Source: Lates japonicus
Taxonomy: Eukaryota
Assembly (NCBI GenBank): GCA_033238685.1
Contig: BRZM01000010.1
Span: 3,885,405 to 3,949,404, forward strand
Direction of reading: 5' to 3'
Length of the DNA: 64,000 bases
Position numbers and translations under genes: made by a program. The notes under the pieces are model-generated. The model did not search any database, was not told where the DNA came from, and was given only the letters and a program-made list of their open reading frames with translations. Positions 11,175-64,000 of this stretch are shown one piece after another; position 1 is the first letter of the stretch; every line of letters starts with the position of its first letter.

Positions 11175-11179
11175 TTCAG

Positions 11180-15856: not shown

Positions 15857-15919
15857 ACTTCTGATAAGATGCCTGTCATAGAGGAGACTGTGGAGCTGCA
15901 GGAGCTGAACCCAGCACAG
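15857..15919 (+). CDS. Giant APOL-domain gene exon 37 (TSDKMPVIEETVELQELNPAQ)
   Basis: gcacag|act...cag|gttagc; 63 nt. Confidence 0.6.
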
Positions 15920-16551
15920 GTTAGCATTAGGATATTATAAAGTAGACACCCAGAAAAAAACATTTTTCTGGGACTCACAAATGTTGAGCCAAGCCCATCT
16001 ATTCAATATCATATCCCTTATAAACATACAGCATGACATTTCATGGATTGTTTATCTAGTTGGTTTTGCAGCTGTGAAATGAAAAATGAATGTTAGGGTT
16101 CAGTTGACAAAATAAAATCTGTTACATGAACGAATTAAGTAACTCTAAATAGAACTGGAACAAGTGAGAGACTCAGAAACACTTGAAGAAAGTGAGGACA
16201 AAGAATAATAAAATGACAGTAAGTGCATGCATTTAGATATAAATATATATTTGCATGCACATGAAATCATAATTGCAGCATATCTTTACCTGATATGTGT
16301 GATAATGATTACAGTGTCATTTAATTGTGCATTTTGTTTGTGAAACACAGTGTTAGTTGTCACTCTATGTCTGCAGCCTGTGAAGATCAGCTAGCATTCA
16401 GCGAGTTAGCTGTTTAGCTGTTAGCTGTTTACCATAAAGTCATGTTAGTGTGTGTTAAAGTGGGAGTATGTCATCTGTACAGAACCTTACAGATGTTACA
16501 GCTGAACTTTATTGTGTTAAAGGTTGTGTTATTATTGTGTCTGTTTTCCAG

Positions 16552-16626
16552 GAGGGCACAGTGGAGGTCCAGCCTGTAGAGATGGCAGCTTACCCAACTG
16601 AAGATAACCCTCTTGAATATGAGCAG
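16552..16626 (+). CDS. Giant APOL-domain gene exon 38 (EGTVEVQPVEMAAYPTEDNPLEYEQ); donor followed by (TG)14
   Basis: ttttccag|gag...cag|gtgtgt; 75 nt; frame anchored by ORF 16468..16680. Confidence 0.65.
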
Positions 16627-16640
16627 GTGTGTTTCAGTAC

Positions 16641-16643
<3 letters not shown>

Positions 16644-16672
<29 letters not shown>
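16644..16672. repeat. (TG)14 starting 18 nt downstream of the exon 38 donor
   Basis: direct. Confidence 0.9.
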
Positions 16673-16675
<3 letters not shown>

Positions 16676-16734
16676 ACTAAATATATGCAAGGAAATAAGT
16701 TGACTCTTCACAAACAAATGTCTTTTGTTTTCAG

Positions 16735-16774
16735 GAAACTGATGAACTGATGGAGTGGTGGAACTCTGTAAAAG
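16735..16774 (+). CDS. Giant APOL-domain gene exon 39 (ETDELMEWWNSVK, ends phase 1)
   Basis: ttttcag|gaa...aaag|gttagt; 40 nt. Confidence 0.6.
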
Positions 16775-16893
16775 GTTAGTGTGATATTGATGCACATCCA
16801 CCTGTTTGATGTAATACAAAAGACATAAAAGACATTAAAAACAAAACGCTATTATTATTATTTAGAAGTATTATTTCTGCTGCTGGCTTCCAG

Positions 16894-16945
16894 GTTGGAC
16901 TGAGTGGAACGAAACATCCAATTTCCAGGAGGAGGATGAGGAAAC
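16894..16945 (+). CDS. Giant APOL-domain gene exon 40 (GWTEWNETSNFQEEDEET, phase 1 to 2)
   Basis: ttccag|gttgg...gaaac|gtaagc; 52 nt. Restores the frame exactly into the APOL-domain exon. Confidence 0.6.
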
Positions 16946-17261
16946 GTAAGCACAGTTTCTTTGATTCAAATTTTCCCCAGAAAATATTATTTTGCGTTTC
17001 AGGGAATTTATTTTAGGATATTCTCATTATGTAATATCTGTTGATGATTGTTTTCATTATTGATTAATCATTTGGTCGACAAATCATCAGACAAATTCTG
17101 CCACTGAAGAAGCTGGAACCTGAGAATGTAAAAAGTTTCCTCTAAATGAGAAAACAATGATCAAAATATTTGTTATTTTTCTGTCAATTTACTAATCAAT
17201 TAATCAACTTATCATTTCAGTTCTAGTATAGGAAATTGCCATTAGGCCCTTACATCTTTCG

Positions 17262-17280
17262 TCTCTCTCTCTCTCTCTCC
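17262..17280. repeat. (TC)9 forming the polypyrimidine tract of the APOL-core exon acceptor
   Basis: gtctctctctctctctctctccag|ggctatgg. Confidence 0.9.
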
Positions 17281-17282
17281 AG

Positions 17283-17697
17283 GGCTATGGAGCAGGCAGC
17301 TGATCGTGTCTACATGGCAGCTCGCCTCTTCGTGCATCTCTTCAACCAGCGCGGGGCTTCCTTACAACACCGCATCCTGGAGCTTTTGACCCTGGCCGAC
17401 GCTGCGGATCAATTCCACAAGAAAACGGTGACGGCTGCTGTGGGTGGAGGGGTGGCCAGTGTTGCAGGCAGCGTGGCTACAATCACAGGGCTCATTCTGG
17501 CACCTTTCACTTTCGGTGCCTCTATTATTGTCACGGCGGTGGGGATCGGTGTGGCGACGGCAGGCAGCATCACCTCAGCAACGGCTAATATCACAGACAC
17601 AGTTCACTCCAACATGGACAGGAAGAAAGTGGAGAAGATGATCCAGGGCTACCAGGATGAGATCAAAGACATCAGGGAGTGTTTGGAGTTCATGCAG
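17283..17697 (+). CDS. Giant APOL-domain gene exon 41: APOL core (MEQAADRVYMAARLFVHLFNQRG...Gly/Ala-rich transmembrane hairpin ...ILAPFTFGASIIVTAVGIGVATAG...DIRECLEFMQ)
   Basis: (TC)n-ag|ggctatgg...atgcag|gtgagg; 415 nt. Matches six-frame ORF 17236..17718. Homologous to the human APOL1 hairpin GLAPFTEGGSLVLLEPGMELGITAALTGI and the following KLKEVREFL region. Confidence 0.85.
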
Positions 17698-18378
17698 GTG
17701 AGGACATGTTTGACTTGAGTTTGTGCTTTAGAAATTGAGAATAATCTCACACAGGCTTTGCAGCTGTGTCACAAATTTCTCCACTGATGCCCGCATTCAG
17801 GTCTGGGTCGAGTAGTAATGCAAAAATAGATAAACGAGTTACCCTAAAAAAGTAGGTGTTGTGTAGATTAGGGCAGAATCTACCAGTTATTTTATTTCAC
17901 AGATAATTTGGCAATTATTTTTACAATTAGTCCATTTCATTTTTAGTCTAAAATGTCTAATACTCAAAAATTACCATCACAAGATGAACACCTAAGTCTA
18001 GGCCTTATCATCCCCACTGGTTTTCATCAATGTTTTTATTGGTATACTGGTATTAAATTGCATTCTATGTGGTATTAAAAAAGCCTTAAATTTAACTTGG
18101 TGAGCCCTGCAAAAATTGTTACTGTAATATAGCAGAATCAGGGGTTTCTTTCAGGTATTTCCATCCTAAAATACTTCTGTATGGTTGGTGTTATTTTTTT
18201 CCACCTCAACGATGGTTCACTATAACAAATATGAAAGAATAAAATCAGAATTTTAGGGTATACATTTTGATTTTTAAATTACACTTCATGTATGGTGAGA
18301 AAACCTTTGAAAAGAATGATTATAATGTCTTTCTGAGACGGTATTTAACATCCTTTCCTGTCTCTGTGCCTCCTGTAG

Positions 18379-20112
18379 GAAGGTATGGACACCCTGCAGG
18401 AGTGGGACTTTGAGAAATACTCTCAGAGTGCTGCCAAAAAGGCCCTGAACCACAACATTAAACATGTGGTGAAGGAGGGTGGCCGTGCTGGGAAAGCCCT
18501 GATGATCAACACTGACAAACTCATCAGCACCGTGCAGGTTCTGGGTGCTGCAGGCGGTGCCGCCAAAGCCGCCCAGGCCATCAGCGTCACCACAGGGGTC
18601 ATGTCGGCCCTCTTCCTGGCTCTGGATGTCTTCTTCCTCGCCAAAGATTCCCACGAGCTCCACAAAGGCGCCAAAACCAAATTCGCCACCAAGATCAGGG
18701 AGGTGTGTAAAGACCTTCAAGACGGTCTCCTGGAGCTGAACAAGGTGAAGACGCAGCTGCAGAAAACCATGGACGGCATCGAGGTGGAGGAGTATGAGGA
18801 GATCGAGGAGGTGGAGGTGGAGGTCGAAGATGACTTGGAGTCTGATCCTAAGAAGCTGGCCGAGCTGGAGCAGGAGCTAGACCTCCTGGAGGAGAAACTG
18901 GACAAAAAGATTGAGGAAGAGCAGAAGAAGAATAAAGAGATGGAGGGAGAAAATCAGAAAAGTAAGAAAGAGACAAAGGAGGAGAAGAGCATGAAGGAGA
19001 AAGGAGATGCAGAGAAACAGAAGGAGGACGAGGAGAAAATGGGAGAAAATGATGCAAAGAAAGAGGGAAAGAAGGAGAGTAAGAAGGAAAAAGACAAAGG
19101 AGAAAGCAAATTTGAGTCTGCATTAGAGAAACTACCTGAGGAGGAAAGAGAGCAGAATAAGGAGAAAACTGGCAAAGCAGCTAAAGAGGAAGTTTTAAAA
19201 GAACAATCTCAGAAAGGAAGCAAAAAAGACAAAGAAACTGAGAACCGCATTACTGCTGGGAAAGAAAAACACGAGAGCAAGCGAGACAAGGCAAAGACAG
19301 ATGAAAAACAGAAGAAGGTGGATGCAGAAGAACAGGAGGAACCTGCGAGTAAATCGGGTGACACAAAACAAGGAAGGCCGAGGTCAGAACGGGTCAAAAC
19401 CGAGAGTCAAAGAAGCAAGAGCAGCAGAGAGGATGAAAGAGGAGTAAAGCATGAGTGGAAATCAGTGACTAAAGAGAAAGAGGTGGAAAGTGGGAGTGTG
19501 AGGAGGCACAGCAGCAGGAGTGAGCATGACAGAGAAAGAGGGGGTAAACATGAAATGAGAGAAACTGATAAGGAGAGACTCCCTAGAAAAGAAAGTGACA
19601 GGACAGAGAGCCGGAGGAGGACAGAGGAGGAGAGAGGAGTAAAAGACTGGAGAGCTGAGATGGCAAAAAGTAGAGAGCAGAGGAAAGAAAGTAAAGAGGG
19701 AAGAGAATCCAAGAGAGAGACAGAGAGAGGGACGAAACAAGACAGTCACAGAAAAAGCGACGTGAGGAGAGAGTCACATCGAAGTCATGAGATGGGGACG
19801 AGGAGGGAGAGAGAGTGGGGGAGCAGCAGGGAGGAGTCAGACTCACAGAGGAGTCACCACAGGAGAGGAACGGCCCCGCATGACGAGAAACGGGGGAGCA
19901 GGCTTGAGAGTGCGAGGAGGCAGTTTGAAAAAGCAGGGGGTGAGGAGGCAGATGAGGAGGAGGAGAGGAGAAGGAGGAGGGAGGATGGAGGGGGTAGTCG
20001 GAGGAGGGACAAGGATAGGAGAGGAAGCGACCGAGACAGAGAGCACGAACACAGCCACAGAGGATCTCGATCTGGATCCAGCGCTCTGCTGGAAGACGGA
20101 CTGTACATTTAG
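18379..20112 (+). CDS. Giant APOL-domain gene terminal coding exon: APOL C-terminal (SRA-interacting-like) region, ...MSALFLALDVFFLAKDSHELHKGAKTKFATKIRE..., then an acidic EEVEVEVEDD segment, a K/E-rich coiled-coil-like segment and an R/E/S/D-rich (RS/RD/RE-like) tail; stop TAG 20110-20112
   Basis: tcctgtag|gaaggtATG...; in frame with ORF 18385..20112 (575 aa). Matches the APOL1 C-terminus [35 protein letters not shown]. Confidence 0.85.
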   Translation, partial: EGMDTLQEWDFEKYSQSAAKKALNHNIKHVVKEGGRAGKALMINTDKLISTVQVLGAAGGAAKAAQAISVTTGVMSALFLALDVFFLAKDSHELHKGAKTKFATKIREVCKDLQDGLLELNKVKTQLQKTMDGIEVEEYEEIEEVEVEVEDDLESDPKKLAELEQELDLLEEKLDKKIEEEQKKNKEMEGENQKSKKETKEEKSMKEKGDAEKQKEDEEKMGENDAKKEGKKESKKEKDKGESKFESALEKLPEEEREQNKEKTGKAAKEEVLKEQSQKGSKKDKETENRITAGKEKHESKRDKAKTDEKQKKVDAEEQEEPASKSGDTKQGRPRSERVKTESQRSKSSREDERGVKHEWKSVTKEKEVESGSVRRHSSRSEHDRERGGKHEMRETDKERLPRKESDRTESRRRTEEERGVKDWRAEMAKSREQRKESKEGRESKRETERGTKQDSHRKSDVRRESHRSHEMGTRREREWGSSREESDSQRSHHRRGTAPHDEKRGSRLESARRQFEKAGGEEADEEEERRRRREDGGGSRRRDKDRRGSDRDREHEHSHRGSRSGSSALLEDGLYI

Positions 20113-27921: not shown

Positions 27922-28687
27922 GTTGGTTTTCATTTCATTCACTCAGTATATAACATCACAGAATCATTTTGACCTTTGTACTTTAAACACAGTTTCCAAT
28001 TCACTACAATCAGTTTTAGAATTAAAAATAGAATTACAAATTGCCTTTGTTTGTAGAAATTTCCAAATACATCTGTTTGTGAAAACTTAACAAGTGTTCA
28101 TGTTAGGGTTTATGATATTGATGATGTTTAGTTTATATAGTCTAAACAATATATGGATCATTTGTGTTTGGAATTGAGAAATGTAGTTTGTTGTGTTGCA
28201 GTCAAAGAATATTCAATACTGCCCTTCCACAAAGTTAGGGAACTAAATTGGGCTAAATTTAAGTGACGGAGGCTAAGATATGTTAAGTTTTAAACCCTGG
28301 TATGAGTCAAAATCCAGAAAGTTCCACCTGAGCCTCAGCAGAGACATTTTCAGAGACTGAGCAGAAATTGAACTGGTGTGTGCTCTTTTAAGTCAGCCAC
28401 CACCGATTTTGCTGATGTCTGATTTTAATACATCAAAATAAACATGGAAAAGTAGAGTCAGCAAGAGGACCAGACATGTTCATTTCACTGCTCTGGACAA
28501 CATGGTGCAGAACATGACAGATTTTAGACCTGCAGGCAAATCATTCCATTGGAAACATATATATTATTTCTATTATTTTATCATTGTCCAGCAGAGTATA
28601 TTTTAGCTCAGTGGGAGTAATTGTCAGTTACTGAAGCTGTTATGTACTGTATGTGTTACTGAGTGTGTGCGTTTCTGTGTCTACCAG

Positions 28688-28894
28688 GTGAACATCACTC
28701 GGACAGGCTGTGGAGTCAGTAAACTGTGTTTGGAGACACCAGATAACTGTGATCCTGCAGGAAACGGCACCTGTCTGTTTGGGTCTCTTGTCGCCAGCAC
28801 CCCCGTGGCTCCCAATGGCGTTAACCTGTCCGTTGAACTCAGAGGAAACTCAATGGGTTATGTCGCACTGGGACTTACCGTGAATGCATCTGAG
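28688..28894 (+). CDS. DOMON-domain gene exon 2 (VNITRTGCGVSKLCLETPDNCDPAGNGTCLFGSLVAS...LSVELRGNSMGYVALGLTVNASE)
   Basis: ctaccag|gtg...gag|gtaaag; 207 nt. Matches ORF 28667..28939. Canonical DOMON N-terminal signature C-G-x-x-K-x-C-(x)-P-x-x-C-D-P...C-x-F...EL-x-G...GYVA-x-G-x-S of the FRRS1/FRRS1L/SDR2 type. Confidence 0.75.
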
Positions 28895-30069
28895 GTAAAG
28901 CACACTAAAATTAGTATAATGCTTGTTATGTTGGGTTAAATTGGGATATGCTGATATGCCACATAGAGGAGAGGCCAAACTTCTTCCTCTTCCCCAAATC
29001 CAACCGTCCAGATTCACAGAGATCAAATATAATGCTATGTCTGGGCAGCCATTATCTTGTGATGTCAAACACTTCTGCTAGGAAGTTGCCCTCACAGTGT
29101 CAATAAAATGTTCAAGAGTTTACAGATTAATGGACACCTGGCAAATATTGTTCCAGGTTAATGATAACTATATCCACACAGCATTCATTTTTGTTATGCA
29201 ACACTCTGTAACAACATCAATGTTCCCAGCAAAGGCAAATTGACTTGGTTTTTTATTTCTACTTTTATTGCTCTCACTCAATAGTGACCCATGACTACAT
29301 GAATACAAACATGATACAAACACATGAGAAGTTTATGGAGTTGTAAGGACTGTCTATAATAGCCCAACTGTCTCAATACGGAGAGCTGCAATACACCAAC
29401 TGTGTTCTTCAAATATGGGAAAAACAAGGTTTGATGTGTTGAGTATTTTGTGTAGAAATAGGATACCAAATGTAATACTAATACGACATTAAACTTTAAC
29501 AGTGAGTTAAAAAGCCATAACAAACCTCAAACTGCCATCAGTCAGCACTGAGACTTCTGTTGGTATTAGCATCCTACCTTGCAAGGCTAAAGAGTTAGCA
29601 TTAATTAGTCATCCAAAAACCAGGTAAAATGAGCAGATAACTGATAAAGTTTTACATTAGAGGTACTTTATAATGACCTCCACGTGTGTATGTATACCTT
29701 TGACACTGACCCAGTTAACTATAATGCTAGCAGCCGCTTTCTTAGACAACGTGATTTACTTCAGGATTTGGTTTTCAGCATACTTCACATTCCTCCTATC
29801 AAATCAAATGTCTCATCCAAAATGTGTTATCAAATGAAACTTGTTGTGCAATGGAAAAGAATGTCAAGATCTTATGCAAGACCTTGTTGTGAACAGAGAC
29901 GTAAAGTACCTGCAAACAGGGAAGTGGAAGTTTAAAAACATTTTTTTTTAAAAGCACAATGGTACCAAAAACATTAGTCATCACACGTGAACACCCAAAA
30001 ACCAGAAGGGCTGGAAACTTGACCAACTTTGAGGAAGAAATCTAATTTTTCACCTGTTTCTTTCTTCAG

Positions 30070-32490: not shown

Positions 32491-32669
32491 CTGCACAAGT
32501 TGACAAAACAGTTTGCCTCAGTGAAGTGATTTTAAAACGAAAAACTCAGTGGAACATGACTACACTATGTTAAATTAATGTTATTTGTGATACTTGACGC
32601 TGCCAATATTTGCGATTTGTGTGTAAATGGTGCTTTCATGAAAAGTGGCCCTGGATGAAGGAGTCTCAC

Positions 32670-32830
32670 CTCTTCTTCTTCCAGCAGGTCTCCCTCCTCT
32701 TCCTCATCCTCCTCATCCGAGTCGTTCAGCTCCTGGCTCTCGCCCCCCCTCTTGATCCCATCGTCCTTCTTGTTGCTTGGGTGTGGTGGTGAAGTCACCT
32801 CGCCTGGCTCCGTTTTTAAGCTCTTAGCTT
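32670..32830 (-). CDS. hnrnpc: hnRNP C exon (EAKSLKTEPGEVTSPPHPSNKKDDGIKRGGESQELNDSDEEDEEEEGDLLEEEE)
   Basis: ttcggcag|aagcta ... gaagag|gtgagact; 161 nt; overlaps ORF 32565..32867(-). Confidence 0.75.
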
Positions 32831-32932
32831 CTGCCGAACACGGAGGAGTTTTAAAACATGGCCACACGTCTGAGGTCTCTCTGTAGTTCTGTGAGATTTT
32901 TGCCTTACAGATAATAAATCCTGCAGTGGTCA

Positions 32933-33133
<201 letters not shown>

Positions 33134-33187
33134 TTATTATCAAAGTCAAACATGGATGTAACTAACCTTTGCTCATAAAAATTCCTA

Positions 33188-33610
<423 letters not shown>

Positions 33611-33936: not shown

Positions 33937-34088
33937 CTGAGGGGAAAAACAGACCACAGATCATTAAGTGAGTGTTGCCAAGGACCGCAGATCCAGTCCC
34001 TTCATTGGGGGTTTACCCCGCAGTGTGAATTCAGTCGCAGTGGAACATCCTGTTCCCAGCAGATCTCAAAAACATGTCTGATCCATCA

Positions 34089-34547
<459 letters not shown>

Positions 34548-50300: not shown

Positions 50301-53300
50301 TTACCAGACATAATCCTCAGTGATGTAGATGTAACAATGTGAAAAAATTAAATAATATCTTTCAAAGACAATTGCTTTCTTTTTCATTTTTGTTGTGTAA
50401 GTGTATTGATGTAGTAAGATTTCATGTTGCACATAGAGAATATGAATAGGCTGAATAATTTAACTTAGTTATAATCTGCTAAATTAGATGGGCGAAGCTT
50501 TGGTTTTTGTCCGTCTACAGTGTCAGCGGCTGTAATATTGTTTTAGATACATGAAACCTTCTGTCAAAAATATTTTTTCAGCCAAAAGAAACACTTATGA
50601 TGCTAATAACGTAAAATTTTAAAATTGCAAATTAAAACAAACTTTTAATGCCTATTGTTGGTGGCCTATTCCCCTCACTGCGACACCACAGCGCTTGTTG
50701 TGCAGAGTTAATTTTCCCATGACATCATATGGACGAGTGCTGCATGAAGAGCTGGAAAGTGTTGCTTGATATAGTCCTGACTAATCTATTGGCCAAAATA
50801 CTGATGATTCACCAAACATAGGCCATAAAAAACCACGAGGTGTAAAACATAATCTATTTTCACAAGGCTTCTCAGACCAAATACCACCCAAAATTTGTTT
50901 GGAAAGACACATTGGAGTCAGTCAATACCCACCACACCAGACTCAGTCCATCGGTGAAGAGTTTTAACAGACGTCTTGCGAATCTGCTCCTATTTCAAGA
51001 CGCTGGCAGGCCGGTCGAGTCCAAGTTGAGTCTATAGGCTGCTGCTGCTGGCCGCTCTGCTGTATCTGGTTCACGGGCTCTGCTCACACTGTCTTGTGGT
51101 TTGGACCAAACCACTGTCATTTCACTGGAATTTCCTGCCATCTGCGCTCAGTCGAAGTTTCTCACAGATCCACACCTGCTTGTAAATGTTTAGGTCTGCC
51201 AGGAGGAGAGGACGGTGGGATAGGTGAGCGCTGATGGAGGAGAGAGAAAGATCCACAACCCCCAGCTTTTGGTTCGAGTTTCTAAATGATGAAATGAAAA
51301 CTGACTCGTTTGCAAAGGAAATGTGATTTGGTGGAAGACAGAGCTTTTGTTAATGATGAGACAGAAAGATGAGATAGTGTATTTTAACACTGGCCTAAGA
51401 AAACACATTCACATTTCTGGCTCCCATAAGTCACTTACTGCACTTGATGATGATGTTGGAGGTATATTCAGATGCTTCCCTTGAGCAAAAGTAACAATAC
51501 ATTAGTGTCAATATACTCGCCTTTAAAATAGTGAATTAACGTTTCTACACTTTGGTTTTCAAAAGGATTAAATAAATCAGATATAACGTGAATTAATGAG
51601 CTTCAGGTGCTAGAAGGTGGAAGTATTATGTAAAAGTAACAATATTAATTATGTGGAAAAATGGCCTCTGACTTTTATTATGATAAAAAATATTAGAATT
51701 TCTACAGTTTTGTGTCATTTAATCTGTAATACTGCATCAAGATGTATAACATCATATTTTGTTTTATATATGAAAAATTTGAAATCTATTGAGTAACTAT
51801 ATCTCAATTAAATGTAAATAGTACAATATTTTCTTCTTAAATGTTGTGTAGCAGAAGTATAATGAAACCAAAACAGGAAACAGAACACATGTTCTGTCTG
51901 TATGTTTATTTGCATACATTCAACCTTAAACAGTGAAAAGACACAGTAATATTAACTATTGGTATTATTATTAGCATTAGTATCAGAGGAGTATTAAGTG
52001 TCTCACCATAGAGGAAGAGCCCCAGGAGGATCACAGTGTCTAAAGTTAACAGTAATTGAAATGCCTGAACTGTGATTCCACAACACGTCCTTATTTTCTG
52101 CAACATGAGATGTTGTTATTCACCTGCTCCCACTGAGTTTACTTTGACCCAGACTGCCTCCAAAAATCTGAAAAGTGCCCAAGGATTTTTCTGGCTACAA
52201 TCACACAGCAAAGCAGCTACAGTACTATGGAACTGGGAGTTTTACACACCAGTGATAGAAATGATCAACTGTATCAAAATAACTGAGGGCGTTTTACTAT
52301 CGCAGACACTGAGAGCTTCACAGAGTCTCTGACACAGTGCATTGTTGTTCAACATGCATTAGCTCCAACTCCAACATGACCTGCTCAGTTACACTCGCCA
52401 CTCTTTGAAGTACATGAAGAGACTCAACACAGTGGCACAGAAACTCCACCGCTAACTAGCACACAGGTATAAATGCTGTGCCACTTTTGTAGGCTACAGT
52501 GTTGGCTCTGTGTTGATCCTATGCAGAAGTATAAACCAAACTAATCAGGTATTTGATAAAACATCAGATGGGTAGGTGGTCAGAAGCAACAGATGTCCGT
52601 CTATATGAAACAGCAACAGATCACAATTGAGTGTGGCGTTATAATTAAAAATAATTGAGCATATGTGACGATTCTATTCAAAATGAAAAGATTTTTGTGT
52701 GAAGTTTTGGTCACAGATGTGAATGTGTCACCAAAAAAACTAGAAACACTGAGAGAGTGAATGTGTACTGCACATGAGGCTGAAAACGACTCAGAGCGAC
52801 TGGTGGTGCTTTTACGTGCTCGGGTGCTTCAGCGACTTCATGTCGTGCTGGAAAATAAACTGTAAATCAATCACTTCTCTTTTAGCAAATTTTCCATGTG
52901 AGGGCAGATCTGAATGAGCACATCTTTTTATTTTTCACATAGCTGTTAATGTTCCATATGAATGGGTGTCATCTCTGAGTTTATAACTGGAGTCAGGGAT
53001 CCTTGAAAATCTTTGGTGAAATCTAGGTGTAGGGCATGGGAGGTTCTTCCCTCCTGAGGTGATACAATAAACATGTTAATCAAGACAGAGAGCAGGAACT
53101 TTGGTGCTTTATCCAGGATCTATCTAGGATCATTATTGTTTTCAGAAAGCCAAAACTGATCTGATTTGATCAGTATTATCTCTGTAGGATTGATGCCAGT
53201 GATTTTTTACACCTGATATTTAGGTTTGATTTGGATCACAGTTTGATTTCCCCCAATATTGACTGTTCTCTGAGGAACCGAGCTCACCAGGTAAACCTTG

Positions 53301-56300
53301 GCCTTGAGGTTATTTGTAATGTAAGCAGCACTCCTCCTGATCTTTGTCTTTGGCAAAAAGGGAAAAATCAAAGCAATGAGCTTTGCCTTTTGCCGTCTGC
53401 ATCGTCTCAGCCTCTTCCAGCTGGAGTATCAATATATACCCAGGGATGGAAGAGTAATCACCTCCTCTGTTGGGGTGTTGTGGTGAAGCTTTGCATTCCT
53501 CGCTTCAGTTTCAAGCTGTGTTTCCACAGTCATCAGTGGTTTTGTCACCTGGACAGGCCTCGTCTTTTGAGCAGAGCCTTAAAAATTTAGACATGACTTA
53601 GTGGCTGTGTCTTTATTGGCATCACTGATGAATTTTGTCATGGCACTGGTGCTGCTTCAGCGGCCTTGACATTGCCTTCTTCATTAAGCTGATCACTCAC
53701 TTGGATGCTGCAGAGATTTCTACTTGTTTGGAAAAACTGCCATCAGCACCTTTTTCGCGCTCGCCCTCAGTAGACTTGGCTGCAAGGCTGGGACTGGCGC
53801 ACTGAGCCGTCAGGATCAGAAACGAGGTGGCGACTTCCAGCCATGTGGCCCTCATCAGTGGCATTAACATATCCAGACACCTGGCATGACCTTACTGTCC
53901 ACAGGTGGTTCTCTAGGTCAGCATGAAGTAAAGGGTCTTTGAAGCCTTGGTGTTTGCTGTAGACCTGTTTTTTGTAAAAGTCTCAGGTCAATCAACCTTA
54001 ATGCCAAAAATCTACACAGAAATTTGGTGGAAGTAAGTTTTACTTATTTCAGCTTAATTCAACTTGAGATGATGAGTTGAATGAGGCCATGCTAATACAT
54101 TTTCAAGCCCCTAAAATTGAGACTTTTGTAAACGCTTCTGGCCCCATTTTAGTTTGAAAAACTCCAGGGTTGCATTTTAGTCTGGACAGGAGATTTTTGG
54201 AAACGATGACACTGACAGTATCTTGCAGTGTTGAGGAAAGTGATTTAACCGGACCTGCACCAAAGTTTTATACCTTCCTCCCTGGCTCATGCCCAGTCCC
54301 TCTGCCAAGTTTGGTACAAATTGGCTCCGTACCTTTTGTGTAATCCTTCTGACAAACAAACAAACAAACACATATAACCTTCTTAACAGAGGTAACTACA
54401 AAGTTATGTTTTGTAATCAGCATTTGGAATTTAATAATTTAAGAGAAGAGTAATGTAAAAAAAAGTAAAAAAGTAAATGCAGTTTTAAATAATTTTATTT
54501 CAATATCAAGACCCCATCTTTGCCGCCTTGTGACCCAGTAATAAAACTACTACCTATGATTATTGAACAGGTACTCAGTTATTTAAAAAGTACTTTCAGT
54601 GTCATTATGTCCCTCTTAAATACAAAGTTACTAACACCTGCTTTCCCTTCGTCGTCTTCTCCTGTGCATAGACCTTGATACTGAATAAGTATTTTATTGA
54701 TGCAGTTGTTTGCAGGCTGTAATCTAAAGCATAACGTGTTGCAGTAGTCTTGCTTTATAATTAACCTAAATTAATGCACATGCTCATGTTAATGTGTTCT
54801 TTGTTGGTGTATGACTGACAGCAGCTTGAAGCTCTTGAGTCAGTTCAGCATCAGTGATTCACATGAATCACTCAGTGTTCAGTTCAGTCTAAATAAGGTG
54901 TCGTTCACCTCTAATAACATCAGTCTATCTTTGTGCAGCTTTCAGTGTCAGGTCAGCAGCTTCAGGTCGGGCCTCTTCCCTCCCATTTATAAATAAATGT
55001 TTCAGGAGCCTCCATCTTATGATCCTCCTGTTCAAGTTTCTCAGCTGTGGTCAGTTGGCAGATTGTATAACTGTGAAATTTTCATAGTGGTCTAAGACAG
55101 AACAAAAACAGAACGTGCTGCTCAGCTGTTGCACGTATTCATCATTACATACAAAGTACATCATGTTTTTGGAGGGACACACTATTCTGCATGTCATGTA
55201 ACAGTCAGACCCAGATTGACCTTCCAAGTTTGAACAGAAAATCCAGCTGCTCATCCCACAGCAGGCAGGACTGTGCTCCTAACTCAGCAATGTGCTTGAT
55301 CTCAATGACTTTTTATTACTTTCTTGACTGTGAAATTAATTTATGAGTTGTGTTATGTAAGTAAGATGTATGTGTCTTTTGAAATGTCTGTGTCACTGAA
55401 GAAGTTACACAGAGACAAGAGATGTGTAATGATTTTCTAATGGATACAAATGTGAAGGTCATCTGTGTAAAACTGTTTGTGTGGTAGTGGATGAGTAAAG
55501 GCATCAGCAGAGATAGTGCAGTAATCAGACTCCTGACTGATGTGTGCAGATATTTGAATAGATCTGTACCGTGCAGTGATGCTCACAGATGTTCATATTA
55601 ATTTCACTTGGTAGATGAGATGCTGAGATGGAGATTTGAGAGTTAAAAATATTTTGCTTACTGCTTTATCTGCTGATATATTTGGGTTTTTTTTCAAAGA
55701 ACACAAACATTCTGATGAGGATCCCTTCAATTTGTTTTGGTAAAGAATTGTGATCATAAGTGCTGAGTGAGCCATTTCATGGTTGAAAAATAAACATGTC
55801 ACTAGTCTCAGGTTGACATGACTATGTTAGGGTAACAGTTTTTCTCCCTCTTGGCATTTCTATACTGCAATTTTATGGTACTTACTAGCAGAAGTATATG
55901 GTGATAGAGTATATCTGTAATAAACTAAAATCAGCAGATTATATTTGCCATGCCAAAAATCAGTCGAGATTTTTGACTGTTTATCAAAAGCTTTTTTCTT
56001 AGGCACTGTTTTAAGGAAAAAAAAACTTTTTAATGTAGTTTTTGGGCCAGAAAGTAGAGAGATTAAAGAGGGGACATTGCAGTTAATCCAGAAAATCTGA
56101 ATACGTTTCTGAAGTTATTCTCAGGGAATTAGTATCTACATCTTGATGTTTGACGATATGAGGAGCCTTTGTTAAGACTTTGGAGGTTATAGACTGAGCA
56201 GCCGTTGCCTAAAACCTTAAAGAAGTGGTATTTTATCTGCAAGGTTACTGGTTTGTTTCCCTGGACTGTTTGAAAACTCATGCCTGGGAAAATTTAATAA

Positions 56301-59300
56301 GTACCACTCTTCTCTGCCTCAAAAACTGCTGCCGGTATTAACATCCAGCTGCACAGTATTTGCCAGTAAAAATCTGTGGTCATTCTGTAAATTTCCCAGG
56401 TGTGAAATGTGTGTAACTGTAAGAACGTAAAGCAAGCGGCTGTGAGAAAAGCGCTAATATGCTCACTCAGTTTCCTCTGGATAAATAAAGGTTAATGACC
56501 TGAAAGTAGAGTAAACTAATTTATTATCACACCCCAAGCCCACAAAATTGGTTTCACAGGATTAACCTCTTTTGAAAACAGAGGCCCTGAGGCACAAATT
56601 ATTAAGAGAAGTGTAAACTCTCACCCTCCATCCAACTTTCTGTGTTACTGGGATACCGGTCTCCCATGTCTTTTATAAAAACACAAGTGACAGTTGTGAA
56701 ACTAGTTACGTAATTCACATGTTTTCTTTTATGCACAGCCAGCCACATTTATGAGATTTTGTTCTCTTGCAAACATATTGTTCTAACCTGAAATATACAG
56801 CACCTGTGGGTATTTCTACTCACAAAAACTGTCCCCATGTATTATTTAAATCCAGAAAGTAAGATTTACAACACTCATTTTCCCTCTCAAACTGAAAAAA
56901 TCTCATATGATTTATATAAAAAAAGTAATAAAAAGCTGTGTCAGGATTGCAAATCAGATCTCGGACGTATCTTTAAATCTTTGTCTTTAAATCTTTGCAA
57001 AAGTGCTCACAGTTTTATTTATTTAATATTTATTTGAATTAGAACAAATCTATGAACCAAAGCCACATGCTGTTGCTTTTAAGCTAATCTTTTCCATGCT
57101 ACATGTTGTTGTTCATTAAAACATTATATAGATTATAAATATGACCAATGTGTTCGCAAGTTGTCCTATGACACATCCTGCAGACCTGGAGCAATGTTCA
57201 CTTTCAATTCGAGTGGTGTTAGCTCTGTTTTGGTCTCCACCACCTCCGGAGGGAAATATATGGCCCTTAAGCCATGAAATGCTCCACTGTGTTCACCAGC
57301 TAGTTGCTAATGTTATCTGCCTGTAGTTTTATGCTAGGTAGGTAGTATCCAGTGGGTTGATCAGTGCTTTTTCACCTTAAATAGCAGCCTACTGCAGTGA
57401 AAGTGAACCAAAACAGTAGAGTTACAGGCAGTAAAACCAAAATAATGAGCTGAATCGCACTTAAACGCTCTGTAAAGCTAAGGGGAACTACAGTCAGATA
57501 ATATTTTTTTGCTTTTGCTTCACTATGAGTGATCACTTCACATTACTCACAGTCATTTGATCCATTGTTTACATGAATATATTGATTTGTGCAGCTTTAA
57601 AAGCAGGGGATAGCAGGAGTGACCGGCTGTTCTGTGTTCAGACAGACAATAATTTTCCACTGTTGTTTCCATAAAAAGTTCTGACATGTAAACATTTGGT
57701 CTTAGTCATGATTAGTAAAGAAGCTTATTTTCCCAGACAAGTTGTGTTCACATGCACCTGATGAACTTATAACTCTAATTCTCTGCTTTTCTTGTTACAC
57801 TGATAGCATTTTTTCACAATATAAAACAATGAGGATACTGTATAGTTGCATGAAACAAGCTTCAAATTCCTCTGTATAAATAAAGTTTATATACATACAT
57901 GATAACAGAATCTAATATTTGCCTATATTGATGCAAATTCAGCTAAAGTATTCAGCGTTTCCGCAAGTCTGTTTCACTGTCAATCCACTCTGACGCCTTT
58001 ATAACACCATTGTGGATTATTTAGGAAGACTAGGATTAGGAAACTGCATTTTGTCTGTGTATTCACATCTCTCATTTCAATAAGGATCTGTTTCCCATGT
58101 TTCAGTTGAACCAAAAAGCACAAAAAAGTTTGTAATTCAAGAACCAAAGTGCTTATTGTTGAGACAAGTACACATTTGCTTGTCCTGAAACGCCACAGCT
58201 GTGTTTAGCTAACCTCAGCAAGTGAGTCTTTAAAAGACACCACATGAGATGAGCCTGCTATTTTATAAAGTTTGCTGGCTCAGTTGAGGCTTTGTGGGAC
58301 ACTTTTCTTAGTTTTACTGTCTGACTCTTCTTTCTGGATCAGGACCAAGGTGGTTTGTGAACAGACACTGCTAAAAAAAATCCCCTTTTTGCTATATTTG
58401 CTGCTGGATTTCACTTTGCTAGATTTACAGCAGAGTGGATGTTTACATGCAGATAGTGCAATGGTATTTAGCCAGAGAAATGATATAAGAGGGTTGATCA
58501 GATTTATTCTCAGATTGTAGTGAATCTAATGTTTTGTTTGCATCTCAAATCCCACAATTTGCCCTCAAAACTCTAATATTGGTTTTAACTCTCAAAGCCA
58601 ACAGGTACTAGGTTGCAATTATATTTAAAACATACCAAACCACAAGTATCATTAATCCTGTTCAACCCGTTGACACAGAGACACATTGCAACCTCTCTAA
58701 TTAAGATTCAACCACAGTTCCCATGACTGGTCTGCTACATGACTCCAGTGGGGGGAACTCCAGCGATTTACGGGAAGAATCATAAAACTGTAAACCAGAC
58801 TATACCAGGAAACTATGGGCTTGAACCTACACTTAGTGAGTCCTTCGTCAGCTAATATAACTACAGAAGTGAACTTACTCATCCTCTTAGCTGTGCTGGT
58901 TTCTTGGCTCATAAAACAACAATCCGTATAAAAATCCCATTGAATCTTTCCGATGACTAATTACACGTGGCAGAGATCCTGTTGTAAATTAGATCATCAA
59001 TATCTGGCAGATGGCAGAGAACAGTGGAAATCAAGTCTATTCCAATAAACACTCAAGGACTTTTGCACAGTAGAGCTACTGTATATGTGACAGGGGTGTG
59101 CGGGAAGGGGGGACTTCTGTTTGACCCACCATTTTCCAGCCCTCCCTGTCCTGCATCACTAGCTAGCGGAGAGATGTGGTCCATTACTCGCCCTCTGTTA
59201 ACAAGCATCTGGACTAGGTTTCAGGCAATCGGCTGCCACACAACGCCTGGCTGTTTGCTGCAGGGGTGGCCTTAATGCCTGCAGTAATGAATCAGCCCCG

Positions 59301-61042
59301 ACTGTTACGGCAGCTCAAAGGAAACCAAATATACACTCGCTTCAGCATCGCACTCAGAAATGTTTGATTGAAGCCTGCTGACAAGGGGGTCGGACACGTT
59401 GTTTGTTTGGGTTTTACTTCATCCAAAAACGTCTCCGCTGGTCACCTCGGTCCATTTGCTGTTAATGATTGAACGCGGTGTTGCCGATGGCTGGAAATGA
59501 GGGAATAAGGTTCAGAGAGTGACACATTTTGGGTTTTATGTTTCAACCCTTGGAATGGCATGGCAAGTTGTCACACCAGCTGAGTCACAGCTCTGCAACA
59601 TCACAATAAATCCTGAGTCATTTTAGCCGATAGTAGTTCACAACAGTGGTGGAATGTATTTATTCAAGCACTGGGAAAATCCATCAATTTTACACATCAA
59701 AGTCTGTTTACAGGACTTTGGGAGTACTATTGCATATGTGAAAAAAGTTGTATAAGTCCTTTGTGGCTCCAGAGGAAGCTGTGTGAAATTCTGTATGACA
59801 CCTGAGTCAGCGTCGGTTGGGTCTGAAGACTAAAAGTTTCAAAATTTTTAAAAATCTGTGGGTGTGGAGTTAGAAAGAAGTGAGTTTACCAGACCTCTGT
59901 AGCCTTCTCAATGAGCCTCCGCTTAAATAATGCCCCCAAATCTCTGACCAAGGCATGGAAGAAGAGCATGGAGTAAAAAAAAAATCTCAGATTTTGCTGC
60001 ATTGAGTTTGATTCTTTTAAAAAAAAAAAAAAAACCTGTCCATTGTGAGTTTGATGATTATTGGGGCACAATGCTAAATCATTCTTAGGTAGTTTTACTT
60101 AAGTAGTTCCATTTTATTCCACTTTATACTTCAACATTTCAAGTGTTGATTTGACAGCTGCACTCATTTTACAGATTATGATTTTACACTGAAAAAAATA
60201 CAAGTGGTCGCTAACCTGTCTGACTTGTGACCTTTTACAAAAAAGCAGTTGGGACCCTTTGTCTTGTTTCAGATGTCTATGAGTTGTTAGCACTGTTGTT
60301 GTTAGCAACATTACTCAGAGGTAAAACTCGGCAAATAAGAGAGAAAAGTCCAATATTTTATACAAATATCTGTAGCAAAACTTAGCTTTTCCTCTTTCCT
60401 ACCTCATTATTAATGTCACACCTTCTCAGCTTTATCGTGTGCTCCTTTGGAGAGGTTCAAACACTGGACTAAACTACCTAACTGTAGATAAAGAAGTTAA
60501 AACTGGCTACTGCAGGAAAATGCCGATTATCCATTGATGTATGAACAGTCTAATAACATCACTCACAGGGACCATTTTTATGCAGAACGAGTGCTTTTAC
60601 TTTTGATGCTTTAAGAACATTTTGCTGATGATACTTCTGTACTTTTAAAGTGTGATTCCATGATGCAGGAGTTTAACTTGCATTTGAGTATTGTATGGTG
60701 TTGTTTCTGTACTTTAACTTTAGTAAAAGATCGTCCACCACTGGTTCACAAAGTTCTTATGTGATCTGTGATTGTTGTCTTTTAAGGTGACTCATTCTGG
60801 TCTGGTTTTTGTCTCCCACACAGCACGAGAGATGACTGATCACGCAGCAGTTTGGAACAAATGACAGAAGATTACACACGCAGAAGATGCCAGCAGCTGG
60901 AGATCAATCTAATTTGATTATATTTAAATACTGAAAGATGCTGTGGACGGTTCTGCCTCCAATGGATTCTTAAAGTTGCCCCAAGACAGTTAACATCCAC
61001 GATTTTACTGAAGGGATCTCCTGGTGGAAGTCAGAGAGCGGG

Positions 61043-61258
61043 GGCCAGGATGTGGCCCCCCGACCTCGGGCCTCCAGATGTCCAGCTGACTCTTCCTGGT
61101 TTTGGGAGTGTGTTTGAAGATGCAGAGGACCTGCAGGCGCCGCTGTCTTCTGGTGGCTTCTGTCAGTCCTCGATACATTCAGCTGGTCTGTGCTGTCTAC
61201 CAAGGACCTCCCTGTCCCTGTCCTCCCTGGGGCGAGACCTCACCTCCTTACTCAACTG
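61043..61258 (+). pseudogene. Candidate upstream exon of the GLIS-like locus (MWPPDLGPPDVQLTLPGFGSVFEDAEDLQAPLSS...LTSLLN), donor aact|gtaagact
   Basis: ORF 61050..61286 ends at a gtaag donor that splices in frame to acceptor cacacacag|accc at 61320. Confidence 0.3.
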
Positions 61259-61319
61259 TAAGACTAATGGTTCCCACATAGAATAGACCATGGAGGACTT
61301 TGCCACTACAGCACACACA

Positions 61320-61936
61320 GACCCTAAAAACACCCAGAGGTTCGGTTGTTACCCTCAGCCCTCCCTCCCTTTATCCTACATGCTCACCAGCTATGCCACA
61401 TCTCCTTCTTTCTGCTCCCCCTCACCCTCTGTTTCCTCTACCTCCTCCTCATCATCTTTATTTTTTGCCTCTTCCTCGCCTCTCTCAGACGCCAACAACA
61501 AAGCGTCTCAGCAACAACGAAAGCTACAAGAAGAGTATCACTCCACTAAACAGGAGCCTGCAGATGATTTCATGCCATGTAAGAGGGAACCGTTCCAAAT
61601 GAACAACCAGCAGGGGGAGCTGTTCCATGTTGGCCAGCCCCTCCAATGCCACGATGGTCAGGACAGCACCCAGACCCCTCTGCACTCCTGTCAACGGACC
61701 TGTTGACACAGACCTCATGGCGGACCAACAGGAGCAGCTCTGTCACTGGATCGACTGCAGTGCCAATGCGACAGCAGCCAGAGGAGCCAGGAGCGGTTAA
61801 TGAGAAGGTTCACATCGACCCGCGCAGGGGAGGAGCTTGTATGCTTCGCCGGCTGCGTGCGCCGCCACAAACCTCAACGCTCGCTGCTGCCTATCCACAT
61901 GAGGGTTCATTTGGAGAAAAGCCCAATAAATGCATG
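61320..61936 (+). pseudogene. GLIS1/GLIS3-like exon: Ser/Pro-rich region, then zinc fingers 1-2 (..QEQLCHWIDCSA.. / ..KVHIDPRRG.. / ..EELVCFAGCVRRHKPQRSLLPIHMRVH.. / ..GEKPNKCM|gtgagt) with at least 3-4 frame changes; pseudogene or error-laden
   Basis: The conserved GLIS ZF1-ZF2 residues (CRWIDCSAAYEQQEELVRHIEKSHIDQRKGEDFTCFWAGCVRRYKPFNARYKLLIHMRVHSGEKPNKCM in GLIS1/3) are recoverable only by hopping among three reading frames. A W codon and 2 codons are deleted, and the first ZF histidine is lost. Stops occur in each single frame. Confidence 0.5.
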
Positions 61937-63559
61937 GTGAGTCAGTCTCCCCTTGTATGGTTGAAATTCATTTTTGACTATTACATTCACTGAGACAGAT
62001 TAAGCTTTAACCTTATCAGCACTCATGCACTTTGCTGACCTTCTGGCCAATTCCTTCTCACACCCTTCACACACCCCTGTGCTGTAGTTAAATGTTTGGG
62101 TGTCAAACTCAGAGCAGAGGGTTCTTCCAGGAACTGTAATTTAGCACTGATGTTCTACAATCGATCAGTTTATCCGTCTGATAGACCAATGCAGGACTGA
62201 ACATTTATTTTGATCAGTGGGGCGCTGTAGAGCACGGAGGATTCCCAATTAGTAATGTCTAAGGTGATGCACTTTCTGCTGCCTATAGTGTACAAATGTA
62301 AGACCTAAAGGGCCAGACATGTCAATAATAGAAGCAGGAACATGTTTAGTTTTGAAATGTAAATTCTACCTTTAATTCACTTCTTACAGCAGGTGGAAGT
62401 AGATGAGATTGTGCTTATTTGCCTCGAAACTTCCAAGAATTAAATAAATCACCTACACACACAAAAAGGTGGTAAACTAAATGGTGAGCCCGTGATACAT
62501 CCCACAACTGAAAAAAAAGGTTAAAACAACTGTAAAAACATTAAAATCTCCAATTTCAGTTTAAATTTATTTTAGTTTTAATTAATCCATTTAAATCCAG
62601 TGTTCTTCTTGTGCTGTGGTGTTGACTGATTTATTAAATTTAAAGTCTTAATTAAAGTCTTTGTTGAGGTCTCTATCCATGGATGAGATGTAAAATGTAA
62701 GAAAGAAACTATTCCTCTTTAATTCAGAGTCGACTCAGCAGTAATGGAGGAAGGGTTACTTTACCCACGCAGGTTTATCCAAACATGCAGGAATCAAACT
62801 GGCAAGCCCAGCAACAGTTGCTACCATTTTCAGTCGTCAAAAACAAATCTCATCCTTTCCAACTTGTGTTTGCTTCAAATGAGCTGTTTAGAGGTTTAAC
62901 TGGGCTTGAGAAAGGCATTAACTTGCTTACAGTATGTCTCGACTTCCCTCAGACCGGGGTGCAGTCGGTGATCAACAGTCTGTTAGAGAGATGATCAACA
63001 GTTTCCTCCGCCACTTACAGGTTTCCCTTACTCATGCATGCCGGAGGAGGAAATGCGGCAGTGGTGAATGAATGGAGGGATGTGTCTGTAGCACTGAGGC
63101 TCCAAGGACCAGTTGATCACCCTGGGTGGTTGTCTCTTGACAAATGCAATTAATTTATAGTTACAGTAGCATAAGATGGTGTATTCACATGTAATGAGCA
63201 GATAAACTTGTAAATCCTGTGTGTGGTGGATGTAAATGTCTCAGAGAAGAAGCTGAAGTTTCAACCTGTCTTCTGACACATGCAGGCTGTCTAAAGTTGG
63301 TGATGTCTGTCGTCACCATATAACAACAAGTGTGACTTGTATAACCCAGAATTCTTTTGGAGCAGCAAAACCAGATTTGGAATGGCGGACTCCGCCACCT
63401 CAACGATTAGTTCTGAAAATACAGTGGCCACACTTTATTAGGCTTATTAGGGTACAGCTATATCCAGTACCAGTCCAATCAATATATGATAAATACTACC
63501 CTTTATAAAGCTTATGGTATTATAAAGGTGATTTAATTGCATTAAACTGTTCAGGCCAA

Positions 63560-63900
63560 TAAAGTGGACACTCGAGAAGTAATTACTGAGTGTAAAATTT
63601 CTGTTAAATTGCTATTACGGATAAATGCTGGGACTATAAATAGCATCAAAATGTGGTCTTATTCCCACAGAGAAAACTTTGAGCGATTTCCCGTCTTTGT
63701 CAACATGTCTTCAAACATAGAAGCTGTTCTAAATGATGGAATACAACCAAAAGACCACATCCAAGATAAGTATAAAACCAGACAAGCAAGTTGGGTCCGA
63801 GGTTTGGCCAGGAGACCGCGGATGTTTCTGCATTACCCATCACAACTGTGGCCTTTGAGCCCCCAGCACAATATTTCCCTCCATCACTTCTGGTCATGAG
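63560..63900 (+). mobile_element. Degenerate Tc1/mariner-family transposase C-terminal fragment
   Basis: ORF 63564..63899 contains ..AGTINSIKMW..ENF.. and ..IQPKDHIQDKYKTRQASWVRGLARRPRMFLHYPSQLWPLSPQHNISLHHFW. These resemble the Tc1 ..GTMNAAKY..EENL.. and ..FQQDNDPKHTSK...VLEWPSQSPDLNPIENLW regions. Confidence 0.4.
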
Positions 63901-64000
63901 TCATTTTCTGAAATGTCAATGAGGCTCGAACATGTCTGTCCCATGCCGACCCCAGTTTGGTGCGCCAAATCCCTGTCCTGAGAGTGAGTAATCTCTGTAA

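What the first reader, a model, noticed from the sequence alone, without database searches (positions are those of the whole stretch)
61320..61936. GLIS1/GLIS3-type zinc-finger exon whose conserved residues are spread over three reading frames
The recognisable pieces QEQLCHWIDCSA, KVHIDPRRG, EELVCF-AGCVRRHKPQRSLLPIHMRVH and GEKPNKCM|gtgagt align in order to GLIS1/3 ZF1-ZF2 (CRWIDCSAAYEQQEELVRHIEKSHIDQRKGEDFTCFWAGCVRRYKPFNARYKLLIHMRVHSGEKPNKCM). They lie in frames that change four times within about 200 nt. The invariant Trp of CFWAGC, two codons in the KPFNARYK stretch and the first ZF1 His are missing. The upstream Ser/Pro-rich ORF (61290..61706) ends in a stop just before ZF1. Either this is a recently decayed GLIS paralogue, which is plausible after the teleost genome duplication, or the assembly has several single-base indel errors here.
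Basis: partly seen in the sequence, partly recalled or inferred. Interest (0 to 1): 0.55.

Follow-up and report, generated by a model that had tools for sequence, protein, structure and literature searches.

The report
Assembly error in akame glis1a exon
The scrambled GLIS zinc-finger exon is the first coding exon of the fish gene glis1a, and its frameshifts mark the start of a stretch of uncorrected Nanopore sequence used to fill an assembly gap, because a second assembly of the same species has the gene intact.

Summary
Window 61050..61936 is coding exon 1 of glis1a (GLIS family zinc finger 1a), and its ZF1-ZF2 residues are spread over three frames.

It is not a decayed gene. The window is the Kochi assembly of akame, Lates japonicus. 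That assembly's own gene model, GLD50777.1, reproduces 66 residues of the window's frame-0 reading across the damaged part.

The Illumina-only Miyazaki assembly of the same species encodes an intact 612-aa protein at the same locus. The two assemblies are 99.9% identical for 10 kb upstream. From 61689 to the end of the window they differ by 11-17% per base, in exon and intron alike.

With L. calcarifer as outgroup, 144 substitutions are private to the window and 4 to the other assembly. Indel events outnumber mismatches.

The genome paper says gaps were filled with Nanopore reads by LR_Gapcloser and then polished with Pilon. GLD50777.1 also carries an intact copy of the same exon part after the damaged one, so this looks like a false duplication that polishing could not reach.

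A TAG at 61284 and two missense changes just upstream are probably residual errors. Interest is low, and this is not a real feature.

The parts
61050..61936 (+). glis1a coding exon 1 as assembled. It is 887 nt here, against 906 nt in the intact L. japonicus and L. calcarifer copies.
   Evidence: It starts with MWPPDLGPPDVQLTLPGFGSVFEDAEDLQ, as all orthologues do, and ends GEKPNKCM|GT. The locus is syntenic with the plaice, Chelmon and Lates loci.
61050..61688 (+). Clean part of the exon, coding the N-terminal Ser/Pro-rich region, residues 1-213.
   Evidence: 636 of 639 nt are identical to the Miyazaki assembly (L008), with no indels.
61284..61286 (+). In-frame TAG. The codon is AAG (Lys79) in L008, in L. 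calcarifer and in four other species.
   Evidence: The change is private to the window. It is probably a residual error close to the filled gap, but that is an inference.
61393..61393 (+). G>A, Cys to Tyr, private to the window.
61546..61546 (+). T>C, Ile to Thr in the conserved SIKQEPADDF motif, private to the window.
   Evidence: The same Thr is present in the Kochi gene model GLD50777.1.
61689..61936 (+). ZF1-ZF2-coding part of the exon, inside the error-rich stretch.
   Evidence: 82.7% identity to L008, with 18 mismatches, 12 deletion events (24 nt) and 3 insertion events (5 nt). All differences are private to the window.
61937..64000 (+). Intron 1 as far as the window reaches. The error-rich stretch continues here. 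The GT donor is at 61937-61938.
   Evidence: 88.8% identity to L008, with 74 mismatches, 53 deletion events and 50 insertion events. There are 113 window-private substitutions against 4 L008-private.
51053..61049 (+). Upstream flank, used as the internal control for base accuracy.
   Evidence: 99.90% identical to L008, with 7 mismatches and 2 small deletions in 10 kb.

Best explanation
The window comes from the Kochi scaffold assembly of akame, Lates japonicus (BRZM01). Position 61689, inside glis1a coding exon 1, is where accurate sequence gives way to a stretch that is in effect raw Nanopore read sequence. That stretch was placed in a scaffold gap by LR_Gapcloser.

The true sequence of the same region starts again further downstream in the scaffold, so the fill is a false tandem duplicate. 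Illumina reads map to the accurate copy, so Pilon left the noisy copy unpolished.

The frameshifts, the lost Trp codon and the scrambled ZF1 helix are sequencing errors, not mutations. The animal's glis1a gene is intact. The TAG at 61284 and the two missense changes 140-400 nt upstream of the boundary are most likely residual errors at the edge of the fill.

Shown: the abrupt loss of identity, its error profile, its polarity, the intact second assembly, and the intact second copy in the Kochi gene model. Inferred: that the boundary is a contig or gap edge, and that the three upstream substitutions are errors.
For: 1. Identity of the window. GLD50777.1 (P0238, L. japonicus, 'GLIS1, partial') contains exact window translations at residues 1-69, 71-99 and 101-166. 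The last is 66 residues read straight across the frameshifted stretch.

2. Intact gene in the same species. GAA6236113.1 (P0274, 612 aa, five zinc fingers) is encoded on BAABXA010000608.1 of the Miyazaki assembly. It is 608/612 identical to L. calcarifer glis1a. The ZF part of exon 1 is present once in L008 and once in L007.

3. Abrupt boundary. Window and L008 are 99.90% identical over 51053-61049 and 636/639 identical over 61050-61688. Identity then falls to 82.7% over 61689-61936 and 88.8% over 61937-64000.

4. Polarity. With L. calcarifer as outgroup, 144 substitutions over 61689-64000 are private to the window and 4 to L008. The window still shares 67 of the 71 japonicus-versus-calcarifer differences with L008. 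A Tajima-type relative-rate chi-square is about 132.

5. Error profile. Over 61689-64000 there are 118 indel events against 92 mismatches, mostly of 1-3 nt, with insertions and deletions both common. The clean part of the window against L. calcarifer has about 0.3 gap openings per mismatch. Other fish lineages show 0.17-0.2.

6. Method. The genome paper states that Supernova linked-read contigs (N50 26 kb) were scaffolded with Nanopore reads, that gaps were filled with Nanopore reads using LR_GapCloser, and that the result was polished with Pilon. The effective assembly size is 790 Mb against a k-mer estimate of 633 Mb. The Miyazaki assembly is Illumina only (PMC11346364). LR_Gapcloser is designed to fill gaps with raw reads (PMC6324547).

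7. False duplication. In GLD50777.1 the damaged copy is followed by 140 residues identical to the intact protein, starting at LNGPVGQD. That is the point in the protein where the noise begins.

8. Species diversity is 3.3-3.4e-4 per bp. The two individuals therefore cannot truly differ by about 10% over 2.3 kb.
Against: No reads or base qualities could be examined, so the gap edge and the missing Illumina support are inferred.

The scaffold beyond 64000 could not be fetched. The intact downstream copy is therefore known only through the gene model.

The three window-private substitutions in the otherwise clean 61050-61688 are all substitutions, with no indels. That is not the typical Nanopore error mix, and one of them is a nonsense codon. 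They could be real variants of the Kochi fish.

The error density in the exon part (17%) is higher than in the intron part (11%).
Confidence: 0.93

Rival explanations
1. This is a real decayed glis1a copy: either a unitary pseudogene or a real tandem duplicate of part of exon 1 plus intron 1 that has drifted, present in the Kochi fish or in the species.
For: The lesions are multi-base and complex, and there is a stop codon outside the noisy stretch. The Kochi gene model shows two copies in tandem. Judged against four distant species only, the pattern looked like a pseudogene.
Against: The Miyazaki fish and L. calcarifer each have one intact copy and no second copy in 43 kb. The window copy carries 94% of the japonicus-specific states yet has 36 times more private changes than its counterpart. 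No neutral process produces that. Indels outnumber mismatches. The change in quality is abrupt and ignores the exon-intron boundary. Species diversity is 3e-4 per bp.
Confidence: 0.03
2. The noisy stretch is an artefact, but the TAG at 61284 is real, with or without the changes at 61393 and 61546. On this reading the Kochi individual carries a natural glis1a null or damaged allele.
For: The three changes lie in sequence that is otherwise identical to the second assembly. They are substitutions rather than indels. The akame paper reports a raised load of high-impact variants.
Against: Three derived, protein-damaging differences fall within 262 nt, where the two assemblies otherwise differ at about 7 sites per 10 kb. 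About 0.4 would be expected in 639 nt. All three lie within 405 nt of the start of the noise, which fits an incompletely polished edge of the same fill.
Confidence: 0.08
3. Gene conversion from a decayed duplicate elsewhere in the genome, or a local burst of mutation, damaged only the zinc-finger part of an otherwise constrained exon.
For: Before the same-species comparison, the damage looked like a sharply bounded 223-nt patch with clean flanks. All 8 indels fell in the patch (p = 4e-5), and substitutions were enriched there (Fisher p = 2e-7).
Against: The patch is not bounded on the 3' side. The same density of differences continues for 2 kb of intron to the window end. No donor sequence is in the window. 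The relative-rate and indel arguments above also apply.
Confidence: 0.01

Closest known systems
glis1a (GLIS family zinc finger 1a) of Lates: L. calcarifer XP_018533613.1 and L. japonicus Miyazaki GAA6236113.1
   Same: Same locus, with 10 kb of upstream sequence 99.9% identical to Miyazaki and about 94% identical to L. calcarifer. Same exon start (MWPPDLGPPD...), same exon end (GEKPNKCM|GT), and the same N-terminal 213 residues apart from three changes.
   Different: As assembled in the window, the ZF1-ZF2 part is 19 nt shorter, is spread over three frames, and has a stop at codon 79. The real gene is intact, with 612 aa and five C2H2 fingers.
Errors and false duplications left in hybrid assemblies by gap filling with long reads (LR_Gapcloser or PBJelly fills that short-read polishing cannot reach)
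   Same: The pipeline is documented for this assembly. Quality changes abruptly. The error is about 11-17% per base and rich in indels. All differences are private to this assembly. An accurate copy of the same sequence follows downstream. The assembly is inflated, at 790 Mb against 633 Mb.
   Different: Nothing tested differs. The gap coordinates and read support were not available to check.
Unprocessed or unitary pseudogene
   Same: Frameshifts, a premature stop, and loss of invariant zinc-finger residues in an exon that keeps its splice donor and its synteny.
   Different: The lesions are absent from an independent assembly of the same species. The damage extends equally into the intron. 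The changes are 36 to 1 on one branch, and indels outnumber substitutions.

Membership tests
GLIS1 / glis1a orthologue (locus identity) | Sequence homology of the exon to GLIS1-type proteins, including the ZF1-ZF2 motifs | tested here: met
   E = 3e-93 to teleost GLIS1 proteins. The N-terminal region is 96.7% identical to L. calcarifer glis1a. Many species' proteins in this group are named GLIS1 or glis1a.
GLIS1 / glis1a orthologue (locus identity) | Conserved synteny and exon structure | tested here: met
   Colinear non-coding matches upstream to plaice, Chelmon and Lates. The exon ends at the same GEKPNKCM|GT junction.
Pseudogene (decayed GLIS paralogue) | The disabling lesions are real, meaning they are reproduced in independent sequence of the same species | tested here: not met
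   The Miyazaki assembly has an intact exon and a 612-aa product.
Pseudogene (decayed GLIS paralogue) | The amount and spectrum of change fit neutral evolution since the split from the nearest intact copy | tested here: not met
   144 private substitutions against 4. There are 118 indel events to 92 mismatches, where natural ratios are 0.17-0.3.
Pseudogene (decayed GLIS paralogue) | A distinct genomic copy, separate from the functional gene | tested here: not met
   The window is the orthologous locus itself, 99.9% identical in the 10 kb flank. L008 and L007 hold a single copy.
Long-read gap-fill artefact | The assembly pipeline inserted long-read sequence into gaps | tested here: met
   PMC11346364 describes SSPACE-LongRead, LR_GapCloser with Nanopore reads, then Pilon. 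LR_Gapcloser uses raw reads.
Long-read gap-fill artefact | Abrupt switch from about 99.9% to about 85-89% identity against an accurate same-species sequence, regardless of annotation | tested here: met
Long-read gap-fill artefact | Indel-dominated differences, all private to this assembly | tested here: met
Long-read gap-fill artefact | No unique short-read support over the stretch, and a gap at this position in the pre-fill scaffold | not testable with these tools
Long-read gap-fill artefact | An accurate copy of the same sequence is present next to the fill (false duplication) | tested here: inconclusive
   This is seen only indirectly. GLD50777.1 carries the damaged reading followed by 140 residues identical to the intact protein. 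The scaffold DNA beyond 64000 could not be fetched.

The most novel reading that the evidence does not exclude
The Kochi akame individual really carries the Lys79-to-stop change at 61284 in glis1a, with the Cys-to-Tyr and Ile-to-Thr changes on the same haplotype. That would be a natural null allele of a conserved Krüppel-like transcription factor in an endangered fish with a high genetic load. The downstream noise would still be an artefact. A still less likely version is a real tandem duplication with a hypermutated copy.
Probability: 0.08. Interest if true: 0.25.

Novelty: not a real feature. Interest (0 to 1): 0.05.

Why it matters
The feature has no biological significance of its own. It matters as a warning.

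In this assembly, frameshifted exons, apparent pseudogenes, apparent duplications and fast-evolving genes can be products of Nanopore-filled gaps. The assembly's effective size is 790 Mb against a k-mer estimate of 633 Mb.

The deposited gene model GLD50777.1 is a chimera. It reads through the noise and then through the true copy.

Scans of this genome should mask such fills or check them against the Miyazaki (BAABXA01) assembly before calling gene loss.

Tried and rejected
1. Exact look-ups of the window's broken ORFs in the protein and contig collections found nothing. They gave no independent support either way.

2. A search with the apold1a ORF to identify the species gave only hits of about 60% identity.

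3. A five-species comparison (Caranx-like, plaice, Chelmon-like and one unnamed fish) suggested a sharply bounded 223-nt patch inside a still-constrained exon. From it I considered gene conversion from a decayed duplicate, early death of the zinc-finger part with the N-terminal ORF retained, and clustered mutagenesis. All three were dropped once the same-species assembly showed the damage running on through the intron.

4. A search for a donor of the patch inside the window found only chance matches of 13 nt or less.

5. The next exon (FEGC...) is not in the window. In plaice it lies 3.6 kb downstream of exon 1.

6. Fetching the Kochi scaffold through GLD50777.1 failed because it is not on record. 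The join between the noisy and true copies was therefore not seen.

Full report
**1. What is in the sequence**

ADQQEQLCHWIDCSA is in one frame, EKVHIDPRRG in a second, and EELVCFAGCVRRHKP...IHMRVH in a third. GEKPNKCM is back in the second frame, directly before GTGAGT at 61937.

A stitched translation hits short teleost 'GLIS1-like' proteins at E = 3e-93. Those proteins start MWPPDLGPPDVQLTLPGFGSVFEDAEDLQ. That is the window ORF 61050..61286.

The exon therefore runs from the ATG at 61050 to 61936.

The full-length orthologue is about 610 aa with five C2H2 fingers. One example is Chelmon rostratus XP_041805427.1. The group is named GLIS1 or glis1a in many acanthomorph species. Upstream non-coding blocks are colinear with the plaice and Chelmon loci, so this is the orthologous locus and not a stray copy.

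**2. First pass, against distant species**

I aligned the exon with four intact orthologues. The window has a nonsense codon, 8 private indels and 24 private substitutions. All the indels and most of the substitutions fall in 61689-61911. The first 639 nt of the exon carry fewer private changes than any other lineage.

The contrast is significant: Fisher p = 2e-7 for substitutions, and p = 4e-5 for all eight indels falling in the last 28% of the exon.

Uniform neutral decay does not produce that pattern. I listed four candidates: an unpolished long-read patch, conversion from a decayed duplicate, early loss of the zinc-finger part with a retained N-terminal ORF, and clustered mutagenesis (notes). 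No donor sequence was found in the window.

**3. Finding the species**

A search with the full-length Chelmon protein returned two Lates proteins. Their N-terminal region is 96.7% (L. calcarifer) and 99% (L. japonicus) identical to the window's.

The L. japonicus entry GLD50777.1 ('GLIS1, partial', 433 aa) is a chimeric gene model. Residues 1-69, 71-99 and 101-166 are exact translations of the window. The last segment is 66 residues read in frame 0 straight across the frameshifted stretch. Those lesions are idiosyncratic, so the window is the assembly on which that model was made.

Residues 167-306 of the same model are identical to the intact protein. They start at LNGPVGQD, the very point where the damage begins. 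That assembly therefore holds a damaged copy followed by an intact copy of the same exon part.

**4. The same locus in a second assembly of the same species**

The cluster of the L. calcarifer protein also contains GAA6236113.1, a 612-aa L. japonicus protein. It is 608/612 identical to L. calcarifer glis1a. It is encoded on BAABXA010000608.1 (locus L008). The window aligns colinearly to L008 from 51053 to 64000.

Pairwise counts against L008:

| Window region | Identity to L008 | Mismatches | Deletion events | Insertion events |
|---|---|---|---|---|
| 51053-61049 (upstream flank) | 99.90% | 7 | 2 | 0 |
| 61050-61688 (clean part of exon) | 636/639 nt | 3 | 0 | 0 |
| 61689-61936 (ZF1-ZF2 part of exon) | 82.7% | 18 | 12 | 3 |
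| 61937-64000 (intron 1) | 88.8% | 74 | 53 | 50 |

The 'patch' is therefore not confined to the zinc-finger codons. It is the first 248 nt of a stretch of at least 2.3 kb that runs off the end of the window. Its apparent 3' edge in the distant-species comparison arose only because few intron columns could be compared. L008 and the L. calcarifer locus L007 each hold one copy of the ZF1-ZF2 part.

**5. Why this is error and not evolution**

With L. calcarifer as outgroup, 61689-64000 has 144 substitutions private to the window and 4 private to L008. At the 71 sites where L008 and L. calcarifer differ and the window matches one of them, the window sides with L008 at 67.

The window copy is therefore L. 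japonicus sequence that separated from L008 very recently. Yet it carries 36 times more changes, which gives a relative-rate chi-square of about 132. Intron sequence already evolves at about the neutral rate, so no neutral process gives such an excess.

There are 118 indel events against 92 mismatches. The clean part of the window against L. calcarifer shows about 0.3 gap openings per mismatch. Other fish lineages show 0.17-0.2 in non-coding blocks.

Akame heterozygosity is 3.3-3.4e-4 per bp. Two individuals cannot truly differ by about 10% over 2.3 kb.

**6. The mechanism**

The genome paper (PMC11346364) describes the Kochi assembly (BRZM01) as follows.

- Supernova linked-read contigs, with N50 of 26 kb.
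- Scaffolding with Nanopore reads by SSPACE-LongRead.
- Gaps filled with Nanopore reads by LR_GapCloser.
- Polishing with Pilon.

Its effective size of 790 Mb is 'substantially larger' than the k-mer estimate of 633 Mb. The Miyazaki assembly (BAABXA01), which holds L008, is Illumina only. LR_Gapcloser is built to fill gaps with raw reads (PMC6324547).

An error of 11-17% per base, rich in indels, agrees with my general knowledge of raw Nanopore reads of that period.

My inference is that the accurate downstream contig begins near the position equivalent to 61689. The fill overlaps it without being merged. Illumina reads then map to the accurate copy, so Pilon never corrects the fill.

The sequence just upstream (61050-61688) exists only once in the assembly and so was polished. 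This would explain both the sharp boundary and the position at which the intact copy starts in GLD50777.1.

**7. The three changes upstream of the boundary**

Three window-private changes lie 143-405 nt before the noise, and all three damage the protein:

- 61284, A>T, Lys79 to stop
- 61393, G>A, Cys to Tyr
- 61546, T>C, Ile to Thr in the SIKQEPADDF motif

About 0.4 differences would be expected in 639 nt at the rate seen upstream. I take them as residual errors at the edge of the fill. I cannot exclude that they are real variants of the Kochi fish, and I put that probability at about 0.08.

**8. Verdict**

The pseudogene reading is rejected, and the assembly-error reading is right but understated. 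This is not a real biological feature.

Its only value is as a caution about this assembly and about the deposited model GLD50777.1. Reads were not available, so the final proof is the read pile-up described under next steps.

Noticed in passing
window 17236-17718 and 18385-20112 (+): An apold1a-like gene (apolipoprotein L domain, PF05461). Its second ORF is an intact 575 aa with a long Lys/Glu/Arg-rich tail. The best database hits are only about 60% identical overall, and no Lates orthologue was among the listed hits.
   Followed up: partly
window 28667-28939 (+); 34086-34538, 33185-33517 and 32565-32867 (-): By eye, ORFs that look like a DOMON/ferric-chelate-reductase-like exon and, on the minus strand, exons of an hnRNPC/RALY-like RNA-binding protein: an RRM (RNA recognition motif) exon and an acidic tail. 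They were not tested against any library.
   Followed up: no
window 57853-59611: A non-coding block 86% identical to Chelmon rostratus over 1.8 kb. It is better conserved than glis1a exon 1 itself and is also alignable to plaice and to another percomorph. It is a conserved non-coding element upstream of glis1a.
   Followed up: partly
window 60006-60018: Four differences from the Miyazaki assembly within 13 nt of T/A-rich sequence, all private to the window. This may be another small assembly or polishing error.
   Followed up: no
L002 (Pleuronectes platessa OX374660.1) 10001-18182: Only glis1a exons 1 and 2 are found before the downstream LRR gene. No exons for ZF4-5 or the C-terminus were detected. 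The annotated product is 377 aa and is named 'GLI2'. Chelmon and Lates have eight coding exons over 22-27 kb, and halibut has a 609-aa protein. This could be a real truncation or an assembly or annotation problem.
   Followed up: partly
window 1-51000: The window has no N, yet the primary contigs of this assembly had an N50 of 26 kb. More Nanopore-filled gaps are therefore likely elsewhere in the window. This could not be checked, because no second-assembly sequence was available for that part.
   Followed up: no
P0238 (GLD50777.1), Kochi annotation: The deposited gene model avoids the stop codons by inventing introns inside exon 1. It reads the noisy copy in frame 0 and then continues into the true copy. 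It also departs from the intact protein in the ZF4-5 region (…HLDTMKDPAVPNYNHPSSPRKHAKAQPKG…), which suggests further errors downstream.
   Followed up: no
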